Assembly (NCBI RefSeq): GCF_048403405.1 | Contig: NZ_CP183129.1 | Length of the DNA stretch: 64,000 nt | Direction: 5' to 3' (one strand) | Origin: Escherichia coli | GTDB taxonomy: Bacteria > Pseudomonadota > Gammaproteobacteria > Enterobacterales > Enterobacteriaceae | In this document: piece after piece, positions 52,290 through 54,319 of the stretch | Numbering within the stretch: the stretch's first letter is position 1 | Layout of the letters: each line of letters opens with the position of its first letter | Translations under genes and position numbers: made by a program | The notes under the pieces: model-generated | Databases searched by the model: none | Seen by the model: the letters and a program-made list of their open reading frames with translations, nothing else | Told to the model about the DNA's origin: nothing

Positions 52290-53318
52290 ATGAATAAGAC
52301 AGTTTTACATATTAACAGTAATATAACCACAGATGAAATTAGTTTATTGTTGCAGGCATCCAAGTATAAATATATTCATTTTGAAATAATTGGGAAAGGT
52401 GATTCATGTAAAAATTTAATTGAGTTTTCATATCATGATTATAATAAAAAAAAACAATTAATTGCTTTAACTAATGCTGGTTTTATGTCGTACGTTCATC
52501 GTGGAAATGTAACTTCATTGGTTCACTTTGATGAGATAAAAAACCTCTGGATTCCAGTAAAAGAAAAAAAGTTTTCTATTAATTCTGATGGGATTGTATA
52601 TACGTTACAACGGGCTGCATGCAAAATAAATGAAAAGCTACTGATTGTTTTCTCTCAGATGCCAATTGAACCATATTCTGCAAGCTTGTACAGATATTTT
52701 GCAAAAAACTTTTCTACAATTGATAAATATATTGGAAAAAATGTTTCTATATTAAGAGTGGCTGATATCGGAGGAATTACTGGCTCATTTTACTTAAATA
52801 CAAATGCATTACCAACCAATGCTGATAAAATTAAAAGCCTTATATTAGAAGTTATTGAACAATGTCAAATAAAATCAGATGATGTCGTACTTTATGGATG
52901 CTCAAAAGGAGGTACGGCAGCCGTTTATCATGGATTAACTAATAATTATAAAATAGTAGCGGTGGATCCTATATTAAATGATGAACATTATATAAATAAT
53001 AAAAATGATCTACATTTAATAGAGGGAGTTTTTCCTCAGCCAAAGGAAGAGTTATTCAAAAAAGTCATTGATGACTATTTAATAAACTATAAGGGGAATA
53101 TGTCTTATTTTATTGTTTCACAAAATTCGGAACAGTACAAATATATTATGGATATTATAAATCCAATCATCACTTATTCAACAGTTGCAAATAGCATCAA
53201 TGATAAAATTAAAAGCCATCCTGATGTTGGGCCACAATCAATTCATATGATTGTAGCAATGATTAATATGGCTCTTTCTGGAATAAAACTATCTAACGGC
53301 ATCTATGATTTTGTTTAA
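52290..53318 (+). CDS. hypothetical protein with serine-hydrolase-like GxSxG motif (possible polymer-modifying enzyme)
   Basis: 342-aa ORF in AT-rich region 2; motif VVLYGCSKGGTAAVYHG resembles an alpha/beta-hydrolase nucleophile elbow. Confidence 0.55.
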   Translation: MNKTVLHINSNITTDEISLLLQASKYKYIHFEIIGKGDSCKNLIEFSYHDYNKKKQLIALTNAGFMSYVHRGNVTSLVHFDEIKNLWIPVKEKKFSINSDGIVYTLQRAACKINEKLLIVFSQMPIEPYSASLYRYFAKNFSTIDKYIGKNVSILRVADIGGITGSFYLNTNALPTNADKIKSLILEVIEQCQIKSDDVVLYGCSKGGTAAVYHGLTNNYKIVAVDPILNDEHYINNKNDLHLIEGVFPQPKEELFKKVIDDYLINYKGNMSYFIVSQNSEQYKYIMDIINPIITYSTVANSINDKIKSHPDVGPQSIHMIVAMINMALSGIKLSNGIYDFV

Positions 53319-53323
53319 ATAAT

Positions 53324-54319
53324 ATGGCTTTAAGATTAAATTCTGTTTTTATACTTGCGGTGATTTGCAGTATCCAAATTTGTAGCGCTGCTATTTTAAG
53401 TAAAAGCTATTCACATAATGATATTCATATCACTCTGCCATTATTATTTAATGAGTACGATGATGTACTCAGTCAGTATGACGGGGCAAAATATTTATAC
53501 CCTAGTTCATTTGCTCTTGATGATGATAATAATATTTATATTCAGTATATTTTTGAGCCAAAACAAAAGGATAATATATTAGTTTGTTATAATAAAAAAG
53601 GAAATTACCTTGGGTACTATAAGATACCAAGTGGTGGGCGAGGCGGGGCTGGCGAAGGTTTGGCTATTATACAAGACTATAATGGGTTTAATGTTGTATA
53701 TGTCGTTTCGAATACGGGAACCTTGCAAAGATATAATATGGTGAGTAGCTTGTATGGTGACAGATTATTTAAGGAAAGAGATTTTTCAATTAATGCTTTT
53801 AACCAATTTTCGATGAGTCAAGACTATTGGCTTATTGAAGGTTATGAAAGCGAAAGAAGTATAAAGTATAGTAGAAATAGACTTGAACTATATTCAGTAA
53901 GTGGAGATTTATTAAGAGTAATTTATTTACAGAATAATTATTCTGGATATATTGTATCAGATGCGAGTCCTGATGCAAAGAATTATAATAAAAGACAAGG
54001 GATAGCTTTAGGTGATGGTTTTTTTGTTGCTAGTTATGGTGCCTTTTACTATTCCAAAATGGAAAGTACTTATAATACATATCAAGGCATTAGAGTTTTT
54101 GATTTTTCCGGAAAGCTTTTATCTGAAAAAATTTTCCATCCAAATGAAATGATGAATGTTCTCAAAAAAATGGGCTTAACAGTTTCTAGAATTGAAAATG
54201 AGGGAGTGATAGTCAAGAATAATACTATTTACAGTATGTATATTTATAGTGATAGATACCATCATAAAACCTCCAGAAGTGAAGGGATCATTATTCTACT
54301 GGATGAATTTACTCAATAA
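53324..54319 (+). CDS. hypothetical secreted protein
   Basis: 331-aa ORF with cleavable-type signal peptide MALRLNSVFILAVICSIQICSAAILS; no recognisable catalytic motif. Confidence 0.55.
   Translation: MALRLNSVFILAVICSIQICSAAILSKSYSHNDIHITLPLLFNEYDDVLSQYDGAKYLYPSSFALDDDNNIYIQYIFEPKQKDNILVCYNKKGNYLGYYKIPSGGRGGAGEGLAIIQDYNGFNVVYVVSNTGTLQRYNMVSSLYGDRLFKERDFSINAFNQFSMSQDYWLIEGYESERSIKYSRNRLELYSVSGDLLRVIYLQNNYSGYIVSDASPDAKNYNKRQGIALGDGFFVASYGAFYYSKMESTYNTYQGIRVFDFSGKLLSEKIFHPNEMMNVLKKMGLTVSRIENEGVIVKNNTIYSMYIYSDRYHHKTSRSEGIIILLDEFTQ

What the first reader, a model, noticed from the sequence alone, without database searches (positions are those of the whole stretch)
52290..54319. Two unassigned region-2 genes: a GxSxG hydrolase-like protein and a secreted protein
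The 342-aa protein carries a nucleophile-elbow-like YGCSKGG motif, suggestive of an alpha/beta-hydrolase-fold enzyme; some capsule O-acetyltransferases use this fold. The 331-aa protein has a clear signal peptide and no recognisable domain. Both are the last genes of region 2 and are candidates for polymer modification such as O-acetylation, or for periplasmic processing.
Basis: inference. Interest (0 to 1): 0.55.

Follow-up and report, generated by a model that had tools for sequence, protein, structure and literature searches.

The report
K2 capsule acetyltransferase plus phage-like propeller
The last two genes of this E. coli K2 capsule locus are a probable capsule O-acetyltransferase, already proposed in print, and an exported protein that is a stand-alone copy of the receptor-recognition domain of phage tail fibres, a link I did not find in the papers I searched.

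Summary
Both ORFs are real and lie exactly where stated. They are the last two genes of region 2 of an E. coli K2 (CFT073-type) group 2 capsule locus, c3693 and c3692.

**Gene 1 (342 aa).** It is a clear member of the XcbB/CpsF family and the positional orthologue of Actinobacillus pleuropneumoniae CpsE. That protein has PDB entries, one labelled with acetyl-CoA. The predicted fold is alpha/beta-hydrolase. Ser205 of the YGCSKGG motif and His310 are conserved across the family. A 2026 paper attributes the K2a/K2ab acetylation difference to a frameshift in the locus's "putative acetyltransferase" gene.

**Gene 2 (331 aa).** The claim of "no recognisable domain" holds only for Pfam and NCBIfam. 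The protein is a five-bladed beta-propeller whose nearest solved structures are the teichoic-acid-recognising platform of staphylococcal phage receptor-binding proteins. By sequence it is homologous to the central domain of many phage and prophage tail fibres and tailspikes. It is conserved as the fifth gene of this teichoic-acid-like capsule cassette in several enterobacterial genera.

I infer that gene 2 recognises the K2 polymer outside the cytoplasm and most likely trims it. That function is untested.

The parts
46675..47082 (+). Context: glycerol-3-phosphate cytidylyltransferase (CpsB-like; CFT073 c3696)
   Evidence: TIGR01518 2.7e-37; 48% identical to A. pleuropneumoniae CpsB
47098..48333 (+). 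Context: TPR + LicD-like protein (CpsC-like; c3695)
   Evidence: 40% identical to App CpsC; LicD/TPR hits in orthologues
48387..52187 (+). Context: TPR + TagF-like + GT4 capsule polymerase (CpsD-like; c3694)
   Evidence: TarF 5e-50 and GT4 hits; 37% identical to App CpsD; deletion of c3694 abolishes K2 (PMC5442458)
52225..52260 (+). Strong hairpin in the 102-nt gap before gene 1; role unknown
   Evidence: 16-bp stem, -21.6 kcal/mol, z = -6.5; 18-nt arms; no U-run follows it
52290..53318 (+). Gene 1: XcbB/CpsF-family alpha/beta-hydrolase-fold protein (c3693), probable cytoplasmic K2 O-acetyltransferase
   Evidence: NF033892 299 bits against a cut-off of 125; PDB 9hvz family E 4e-53; AF2 pLDDT 91; Foldseek best hits are Gap2/Asp2 and esterases
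52446..52454 (+). A9 run in gene 1, specific to this allele (Lys53; CFT073 cluster representative and strain 317 have Leu53)
52564..52570 (+). A7 run (Lys93-Lys94-Phe95) matching the +1/-1 frameshifts selected by phage MLP3 in CFT073 (Lys94fs, Phe95fs)
   Evidence: PMC8849078
52893..52913 (+). YGCSKGG nucleophile-elbow motif; Ser205 at 52902-52904
   Evidence: Ser in 131 of 136 family members; aligns with the GLSMG serine motif of Gap2/Asp2
53217..53219 (+). His310 (HPDVGP), candidate catalytic base after the last strand
   Evidence: 125 of 136; position after strand 297-302
53324..54319 (+). Gene 2: exported five-bladed beta-propeller (c3692), homologue of phage receptor-binding domains
53324..53392 (+). 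Predicted signal peptide (residues 1-23, MALRLNSVFILAVICSIQICSAA)
   Evidence: signal-like N-termini in all orthologues
53423..54307 (+). Propeller domain (residues 34-328) with superfamily-invariant Glu111, Lys223, Gln225, Glu291, Glu293

Best explanation
These are the two accessory genes of the K2 capsule cassette.

Gene 1 (c3693) is most likely a cytoplasmic, acetyl-CoA-dependent O-acetyltransferase with an alpha/beta-hydrolase fold. Ser205 would take the acetyl group from acetyl-CoA, with His310 as base and Asp226 or Asp240 as the acid, and pass it to a galactose hydroxyl of the poly(galactosyl-glycerol-phosphate) chain. This would turn K2a into K2ab. The gene is dispensable for polymer synthesis and is often lost.

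Gene 2 (c3692) is exported through Sec. It is a five-bladed beta-propeller that arose from, or shares origin with, the receptor-recognition domain of phage tail fibres and tailspikes. I infer that its ligand is the cassette's own teichoic-acid-like polymer. I commit, at about 40%, to a catalytic role: it trims or clears the polymer in the periplasm or at the surface, as the self-polymer hydrolases and lyases of other exopolysaccharide operons do.

Shown: ORFs, family membership, folds, homologies, gene order, conservation. Inferred: acetyl transfer, export, ligand, catalysis.
For: **Gene 1**
- NF033892 XcbB/CpsF 2.6e-89, 299 bits against a cut-off of 125.
- Same order as App cpsB-C-D-E, 36% identical to CpsE.
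- The App protein is 100% identical to PDB 9hvz/9hwh/9hwi/9i87, one of which is named 'bacterial protein _ ACoA'.
- AF2 pLDDT 91; the best Foldseek hit is Gap2/Asp2, followed by esterases.
- Weak sequence hits to CsaC/SacC (E 0.012) and to Asp2 around the serine.
- Ser205 131/136, His310 125/136, Asp226 134/136, Asp240 136/136.
- PMC13171606: a single-base insertion in the 'putative acetyltransferase' of K2a may explain K2a versus acetylated K2ab.
- Frameshifts at Lys94/Phe95 of c3693 cut phage MLP3 plating by about 90%.

**Gene 2**
- Signal-like N-terminus in every orthologue.
- Five-bladed propeller, pLDDT 85.
- 256 profile hits; about 138 of the best 145 are long proteins (median 713 aa) with the domain in the middle.
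- The domain sits in the gp17 tail-fibre gene of a Kayfunavirus, in a Staphylococcus phage RBP gene and in prophage tail-fibre genes.
- Glu111, Lys223, Gln225, Glu291, Glu293 are 90-100% conserved in 144 domains.
- The five-gene cassette is conserved in Citrobacter, Atlantibacter, 'Ca. Pantoea multigeneris' and unnamed contigs.
- The cassette copies form one clade, sister to enterobacterial prophage domains.
- dN/dS about 0.21.
- A distant stand-alone copy follows a different TagF-like polymerase.
Against: **Gene 1**
- No assay on the K2 protein, and no paper found for 9hvz.
- No conserved acid follows strand 7, where the canonical one sits.
- The family's name-giver is from meningococcal serogroup X, whose capsule is, to my knowledge, not O-acetylated.
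- That the published 'putative acetyltransferase' is this ORF is my inference. It is the only candidate in region 2.

**Gene 2**
- No evidence of catalysis. The closest solved structures are binding proteins with no reported enzyme activity (PMC4901313).
- The invariant acidic residues could form a structural metal site.
- In ABC-transporter-dependent systems the polymer is not expected to be free in the periplasm.
- Export was judged by inspection only.
- Only two of four informative contexts of stand-alone relatives are capsule loci.
Confidence: 0.6

Rival explanations
1. Gene 2 is a non-catalytic polymer-binding protein: a periplasmic or surface lectin that escorts or tethers the K2 chain, or that masks the phage receptor (a decoy copy of a phage receptor-binding domain).
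For: The closest solved structures are receptor-binding proteins that recognise glycosylated wall teichoic acid and have no reported enzyme activity. In Staphylococcus phage HHU-22 the domain occupies the platform position of a phi11-type RBP. The sister clade is prophage tail fibres.
Against: Charged residues are invariant across phages of very different hosts. That is unusual for a specificity-determining lectin site. Stoichiometric masking of an abundant capsule by a gene with no visible Shine-Dalgarno sequence seems unlikely. No binding data exist.
Confidence: 0.3
2. Gene 1 is a hydrolase (esterase, thioesterase or de-O-acetylase) or a non-enzymatic assembly factor of the capsule machinery, rather than an O-acetyltransferase.
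For: Most alpha/beta-hydrolase-fold structural neighbours are esterases and peptidases. CsxB of serogroup X was considered as a transition transferase and showed no activity on Kdo acceptors (PMC11666461). To my knowledge the serogroup X capsule lacks O-acetyl groups.
Against: A family member was deposited with acetyl-CoA. A K2a frameshift correlates with loss of acetylation. The best structural and weak sequence matches include the two known alpha/beta-hydrolase-fold O-acetyltransferases, Asp2/Gap2 and CsaC. Their acetyltransferase function is from PMC7501274 and my own knowledge.
Confidence: 0.1
3. Gene 2 is a decaying remnant of a prophage tail-fibre gene that landed in the capsule locus and has no function.
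For: The superfamily is overwhelmingly phage-borne. Capsule loci are recombination hot spots (PMC12488582).
Against: The ORF is intact, and an identical protein (WP_001208051.1) is annotated in all three genomes I opened (CFT073 and the two strains in which gene 1 is broken). The exact sequence is seen on at least 1000 contigs. It has precise domain boundaries and an acquired signal peptide. The orthologues are monophyletic at 38-60% identity in several genera, always in the same position. dN/dS is about 0.21.
Confidence: 0.05

Closest known systems
A. pleuropneumoniae CpsE (XcbB/CpsF family; PDB 9hvz, 9hwh, 9hwi, 9i87)
   Same: Same NCBIfam family and the same position after cpsB-C-D in a TagF-like capsule cassette. 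36% identical over the full length, with the Ser, His and Asp residues conserved.
   Different: The App cassette starts with cpsA and has no propeller gene. Cps7E was still labelled 'unknown function' in 2024. I found no publication for the structures.
CsaC (SacC/MynC), capsule O-acetyltransferase of N. meningitidis serogroup A
   Same: Alpha/beta-hydrolase fold and a Ser-His-Asp mechanism with acetyl-CoA, acting on a finished group 2 phosphodiester capsule (PMC7501274). Weak sequence match over the nucleophile region (E 0.012).
   Different: 255 aa without the roughly 110-residue N-terminal domain of gene 1. No family-level homology, and the acid residue is not in the equivalent place.
Asp2/Gap2 of the accessory Sec system
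   Same: Best Foldseek hit (1.9e-8). Weak Pfam and NCBIfam hits around the GxSxG serine.
   Different: About 510 aa, acts on a serine-rich glycoprotein in Gram-positive bacteria. Only the catalytic core matches (TMq 0.47).
Platform domain of staphylococcal phage receptor-binding proteins (phi11 Gp45, 80alpha RBP, NF5 Gp17)
   Different: No detectable sequence similarity between phi11's propeller and gene 2. The phage proteins are trimers with a stem and tower. Gene 2 is the propeller alone with a signal peptide.
Tail fibres and tailspikes of enterobacterial phages and prophages that carry the same propeller family (Kayfunavirus vB_EcoP-U8 gp17 position; P0161-P0166)
   Same: Clear sequence homology (36-39% identity for P0161-P0163, E to 1e-85) with the same invariant residues.
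   Different: 600-1000 aa, with a virion-anchor N-terminus and a Peptidase_S74 chaperone C-terminus. Their receptor is not known to me.
Periplasmic self-polymer hydrolases and lyases of exopolysaccharide operons (AlgL, BcsZ, PslG; own knowledge)
   Same: An exported protein encoded inside the biosynthetic operon of the polymer it is expected to recognise.
   Different: Different folds, and synthase-dependent rather than ABC-transporter-dependent pathways. Catalysis by gene 2 is unproven.

Membership tests
XcbB/CpsF capsular polysaccharide biosynthesis family (NF033892) | Whole-protein score above the curated cut-off | tested here: met
   299.4 bits against 125, profile positions 1-290 of 291
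XcbB/CpsF capsular polysaccharide biosynthesis family (NF033892) | Encoded in the serotype-specific part of an ABC-transporter-dependent capsule locus | tested here: met
   Between kpsMT and kpsS. Same setting in App, Citrobacter, Atlantibacter and Pantoea.
XcbB/CpsF capsular polysaccharide biosynthesis family (NF033892) | Acetyl-CoA-dependent O-acetylation of the capsule polymer | not testable with these tools
   Indirect only: PDB entry named with ACoA and the K2a frameshift
Alpha/beta-hydrolase-fold O-acetyltransferases (CsaC, Asp2 type) | Alpha/beta-hydrolase fold | tested here: met
   AF2 pLDDT 91. 860 Foldseek PDB hits at E<=0.001; the 50 listed are alpha/beta-hydrolase-fold enzymes, Gap2 first.
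Alpha/beta-hydrolase-fold O-acetyltransferases (CsaC, Asp2 type) | Nucleophile serine in GxSxG after strand 5 and histidine after the last strand | tested here: met
   Ser205 follows strand 199-204; His310 follows strand 297-302. 131/136 and 125/136 conserved.
Alpha/beta-hydrolase-fold O-acetyltransferases (CsaC, Asp2 type) | Acidic third member of the triad in contact with the histidine | tested here: inconclusive
   Asp226, Asp240 and Asp159 are invariant but none follows strand 7.
Phage receptor-binding protein propeller ('platform') domain | Five-bladed beta-propeller closed by the N-terminal strand | tested here: met
Phage receptor-binding protein propeller ('platform') domain | Sequence homology to tail-fibre or tailspike central domains | tested here: met
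   E 1.6e-85 to 1e-13 for about 140 long proteins. tblastn hits in 38 phage records.
Phage receptor-binding protein propeller ('platform') domain | Part of a trimeric virion protein with an N-terminal anchor or stem and C-terminal tower or chaperone | tested here: not met
   Gene 2 is 331 aa: signal peptide plus propeller only. It is a relative of the domain, not a receptor-binding protein.
Periplasmic self-polymer hydrolases of exopolysaccharide operons | Sec signal peptide and location in the biosynthetic operon | tested here: met
   (inspection and hydropathy; no predictor available)
Periplasmic self-polymer hydrolases of exopolysaccharide operons | Catalytic cleavage of the operon's own polymer | not testable with these tools
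   Only the invariant Glu/Lys/Gln constellation hints at an active or metal site

The most novel reading that the evidence does not exclude
A phage receptor-recognition domain was captured once by the teichoic-acid-like group 2 capsule cassette of Enterobacterales, given a signal peptide, and kept as a working fifth component. It would act on the finished capsule outside the cytoplasm, either as the first capsule-trimming enzyme of an ABC-transporter-dependent capsule system or as a locus-encoded counter-measure against phages that use the same domain. If the domain is catalytic, it would also define a new family of phage depolymerases for polyol-phosphate glycopolymers.
Probability: 0.3. Interest if true: 0.8.

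Novelty: new variant of a known kind. Interest (0 to 1): 0.55.

Why it matters
K2 is a common capsule of uropathogenic and bloodstream E. coli, including CFT073, ATCC 25922 and some ST131 strains.

- **Gene 1.** It gives a sequence-level read-out of K2a versus K2ab. It explains why frameshifts in it change phage susceptibility. This matters for serotyping, vaccine antigens and phage therapy.
- **Gene 2.** Group 2 region 2 products are, to my knowledge, normally cytoplasmic, so a conserved exported one is unexpected. Its homology to phage tail-fibre domains links capsule biosynthesis and phage receptor recognition. It also offers a small, soluble and easily expressed probe, or possibly an enzyme, for teichoic-acid-like capsules. 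It points to a large, undescribed family of phage receptor-binding domains.

Tried and rejected
- **Pfam and NCBIfam on gene 2:** nothing.
- **PDB sequence search with the gene 2 family profile:** nothing.
- **PHROG label:** gene 2 and its phage relatives match phrog_22693, named 'glycerophosphoryl diester phosphodiesterase'. I do not use this. The match covers only the propeller part of a 968-position profile. A full-length member (P0228) has no Pfam GDPD domain.
- **Pfam PALP hit on gene 1** (and the 'PLP-dependent lyase' name of one cluster member): noise at E 0.006.
- **Lipoprotein:** no lipobox before Cys15 or Cys20, and the cysteines are not conserved.
- **Gene 2 as a substitute for the missing CpsA primer:** rejected because it is exported.
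- **Either gene as the source of galactofuranose:** rejected on fold. UDP-galactopyranose mutases are flavoenzymes (own knowledge).
- **Triad geometry:** model coordinates are not exposed to the script sandbox.
- **Literature:** no paper for 9hvz. Budde 2020 and Buckles 2009 are not held. The supplementary tables of the kTYPr paper gave no per-gene K2 annotation.
- **Promoter and terminator scans of 52100-54550:** no more than chance.
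Full report
**Setting**

The window from about 45 to 62.5 kb is an E. coli group 2 capsule (kps) locus.
- kpsM and kpsT (45171-46675, plus strand) are followed by five plus-strand genes in a block of about 30% G+C.
- These converge on kpsS, C, U, D, E, F on the minus strand (54481-62467).
- The 2030 bases of the finding are 99.9-100% identical to 127 complete E. coli genomes and 95-99% to 13 more. All hits are chromosomal and single-copy. They include CFT073 (O6:K2:H1), ATCC 25922, NCTC86 and some ST131 strains.
- In CFT073 the five region 2 genes are c3696 to c3692 (PMC5442458). The two genes of the finding are c3693 and c3692.
- The first three genes are a glycerol-3-phosphate cytidylyltransferase, a TPR/LicD-like protein, and a 1266-aa TPR/TagF-like/GT4 polymerase.
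- This fits the teichoic-acid-like poly(galactosyl-glycerol-phosphate) K2 polymer described for this enzyme family (PMC5974469).

**Observation**

- Both ORFs exist at the stated coordinates.
- YGCSKGG is residues 202-208 of the 342-aa protein.
- The 331-aa protein has one hydrophobic segment, at its N-terminus, preceded by Arg4 and followed by small residues. The 342-aa protein has none.

**Gene 1 (52290-53318)**

*Family and orthology*
- It scores 299 bits against NCBIfam NF033892, XcbB/CpsF, where the cut-off is 125. RefSeq names it so.
- Pfam gives only weak hits to Asp2 and Abhydrolase_2 around residues 156-230.
- A profile of 37 relatives finds one strong match among solved structures: 9hvz, 9hwh, 9hwi and 9i87 (E 1e-101). 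The depositors' names include 'bacterial protein _ ACoA'.
- That chain is 100% identical to an Actinobacillus pleuropneumoniae protein. Its gene lies directly after cpsA-B-C-D, in the cpsE position.
- The App CpsB, C, D and E proteins all have counterparts in the window in the same order. CpsE is 36% identical to gene 1. CpsA has none.
- I found no paper for these entries. In 2024 Cps7E was still 'a gene of unknown function' (PMC11666461).

*Fold and catalytic residues*
- The AlphaFold model (pLDDT 91) has an N-terminal domain of about 110 residues and an alpha/beta-hydrolase core.
- Its best Foldseek match in the PDB is Gap2/Asp2, followed by esterases and dipeptidyl peptidases.
- The single sequence also gives a weak match (E 0.012) to CsaC/SacC across the nucleophile region. 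CsaC is the alpha/beta-hydrolase-fold capsule O-acetyltransferase of meningococcus A, with triad Ser114-His228-Asp198 (PMC7501274).
- In 136 family members at 25-65% identity to gene 1, Ser205 is kept in 131 and His310 in 125. Asp226 is kept in 134. Asp240, Asp159, Arg135, Arg156 and Lys206 are kept in all.
- Ser205 follows strand 199-204 and His310 follows the last strand, the canonical places.
- No conserved acid follows strand 7. The acid is therefore probably Asp226 or Asp240. I could not measure distances because the coordinates are not exposed.

*Genetics*
- Independent genetics points the same way. [quoted passage not shown] It adds that the two differ by acetylation of galactose (PMC13171606).
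- Gene 1 is the only candidate in region 2. That it is the gene meant is my inference.
- In CFT073, mutants resistant to phage MLP3 carried +T or -T frameshifts at Lys94/Phe95 of c3693. They plated the phage at about 10% efficiency (PMC8849078). These codons lie in the A7 run at 52564-52570.
- Natural disrupted alleles exist. One is a 1-nt deletion at 53270. Another is an 11-nt insertion at 52523, in two complete genomes. Truncated forms are also seen in draft assemblies.
- The downstream gene is annotated as the identical protein (WP_001208051.1) in the three genomes I opened: CFT073 and those two disrupted strains.
- The gene is therefore dispensable for making capsule, as a modification gene should be.

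*Conclusion for gene 1*

It is very probably the K2 O-acetyltransferase (about 0.85). The caveat is that the family's name-giver comes from serogroup X, whose polymer is, to my knowledge, not acetylated. CsxB showed no activity in the only published assay, which tested it as a transition transferase.

**Gene 2 (53324-54319)**

*Fold*
- Pfam, NCBIfam and the PDB sequence search give nothing.
- The word-indexed search found only 13 relatives at 38-57% identity. All carry signal-like N-termini.
- The AlphaFold model (pLDDT 85) is an N-terminal helix followed by a five-bladed beta-propeller.
- The phi11 propeller is the 'platform' thought to hold the GlcNAc of wall teichoic acid. No enzymatic activity is reported for it (PMC4901313).

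*Sequence homology to phage proteins*
- A full HMMER scan of 1.84 billion representatives with the family profile found 256 proteins at E<=0.001, 174 of them at E<=1e-10.
- About 138 of the best 145 are long (median 713 aa), with the domain starting around residue 137. PHROGs and Pfam mark them as tail fibres or tailspikes.
  - P0162 has a weak T7-tail-fibre-like N-terminus (Pfam i-E 0.019; strong matches to PHROG 'tail protein' families), the propeller at 175-481, and a Peptidase_S74 chaperone at 728-797.
- tblastn against phage genomes hits 38 records.
  - In Kayfunavirus vB_EcoP-U8 the domain is in the gene after gp16, the tail-fibre position.
  - In the Schitoviridae phage EK8 it is in a tail-fibre gene.
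  - In Staphylococcus phage HHU-22 it is in the gene between the tail hydrolases and BppU. That protein's first 140 residues match the stem of the phi11 and 80alpha RBPs.
- The nearest relatives outside capsule loci are prophage genes. One lies upstream of a lysis cassette; the other lies after Baseplate_J in a P2/HP1-like prophage.
- P0162's domain is 39% identical to gene 2. That is as close as the Pantoea and Rahnella capsule-locus orthologues.

*Conservation and context*
- In a neighbour-joining tree the 14 capsule-cassette proteins form one clade, and its sister is these prophage domains.
- The family is overwhelmingly phage-borne, so one capture from a phage is the simplest history.
- The cassette cytidylyltransferase / TPR-LicD / polymerase / XcbB-CpsF / propeller is intact between kpsT and kpsS in the following:
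  - Citrobacter;
  - Atlantibacter;
  - 'Candidatus Pantoea multigeneris', where the last two genes overlap by 23 nt;
  - unnamed contigs.
- A more distant stand-alone, signal-peptide-bearing relative (P0215) lies directly after a different TagF-like/GT4 polymerase, with no XcbB/CpsF gene between them. The propeller therefore tracks the polyol-phosphate polymer rather than acetylation.
- Two other stand-alone relatives had uninformative contexts.
- Across 13 cassette, 6 other stand-alone and 125 phage domains:
  - Gln225 and Glu291 are 100% conserved;
  - Glu293 is 99-100% and Lys223 98-100% conserved;
  - Glu111 is 90-100% and Arg184 82-100% conserved.
- By the predicted strands, these residues sit at the start of the innermost strand of successive blades. 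That is where propeller enzymes and metal sites usually lie. This placement is an inference.
- Between two E. coli alleles, dN/dS is 0.21 for gene 2 and 0.22 for gene 1, though from only 15-17 differences.

*Mechanism for gene 2*
- Shown: export-type N-terminus, fold, homology, conserved position.
- Inferred: the ligand is the cassette's own polymer. The reasons are that the domain serves receptor recognition in phages, that its structural relatives bind teichoic acid, and that stand-alone copies sit next to TagF-like polymerases.
- Binder or enzyme is open. I lean to a catalytic trimming or clearing role (about 0.4), for three reasons:
  - Charged residues invariant across phages of unrelated hosts look like a catalytic or metal site rather than a specificity site.
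  - Neither gene has a visible Shine-Dalgarno sequence, and the two are 5 nt apart, so the amounts are probably low.
  - Exopolysaccharide operons commonly carry a hydrolase of their own product (own knowledge).
- A non-catalytic binder or phage decoy is the main rival (about 0.3).
- A dead prophage remnant is unlikely (about 0.05).

**Novelty**

- Gene 1 is already named and its role already proposed.
- For gene 2, none of the capsule and phage papers I searched or opened describes the protein or its homology to phage receptor-binding domains. I ran no search aimed at that link, so this is absence of evidence only.
- An exported protein conserved in a group 2 region 2 cassette is unusual.
- Overall this is a new variant of known kinds: an operon-encoded exported polymer-recognising protein, and a domesticated phage domain.

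Noticed in passing
window 52225-52260: A 16-bp perfect hairpin (-21.6 kcal/mol, z -6.5) sits in the gap between the polymerase gene and gene 1. It contains AAGGAGG and is not followed by a U-run. It could be a processing or attenuation site that sets the level of the two accessory genes. Citrobacter has a weaker 9-bp version at the same place; three other loci have none.
   Followed up: partly
window 52446-52454: This allele has an A9 run (Asn52-Lys53-Lys54-Lys55) where the CFT073-type cluster representative and strain 317 have Leu53. A longer homopolymer may make gene 1 more prone to frameshifts.
   Followed up: partly
window 46675-54319: The K2 cassette has counterparts of A. pleuropneumoniae CpsB, C, D and E but none of CpsA. 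CpsA is the TagB-like enzyme shown to put the first glycerol phosphate on poly-Kdo. The Citrobacter, Atlantibacter and Pantoea cassettes lack it too. How the K2 chain is primed is open.
   Followed up: partly
window 46675-54319: The K2 polymer is reported to contain galactofuranose as well as galactopyranose (title of Fischer et al. 1982, cited in PMC5974469). None of the five region 2 proteins matched a UDP-galactopyranose mutase family in NCBIfam. The source of the furanose is unexplained.
   Followed up: no
window 46675-47082 (L001 6398-6793): RefSeq CFT073 names the 135-aa (131-aa in RefSeq) cytidylyltransferase 'pantoate--beta-alanine ligase'. The best NCBIfam match is glycerol-3-phosphate cytidylyltransferase (2.7e-37), and it is 48% identical to App CpsB. 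This is probably a misannotation.
   Followed up: yes
P0228, phrog_22693: Several PHROG families of staphylococcal phage tail proteins are labelled 'glycerophosphoryl diester phosphodiesterase', yet a full-length member shows no Pfam GDPD domain. The label may be propagated from a few members.
   Followed up: partly
L015 7818-8855: An unnamed metagenomic contig carries a 1402-aa TagF-like/GT4 polymerase, an RgpF/TagF-like protein and a cytidylyltransferase, followed by a distant signal-peptide-bearing propeller of the same superfamily. This looks like a second, independent pairing of this domain with a polyol-phosphate capsule locus.
   Followed up: partly
L001 22953-25776 (beyond kpsF in CFT073): An IS110 fragment, a frameshifted AbiEii/AbiGii toxin gene and DUF6088/DUF4942 genes flank region 1 in CFT073. 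I did not check the corresponding part of the window.
   Followed up: no
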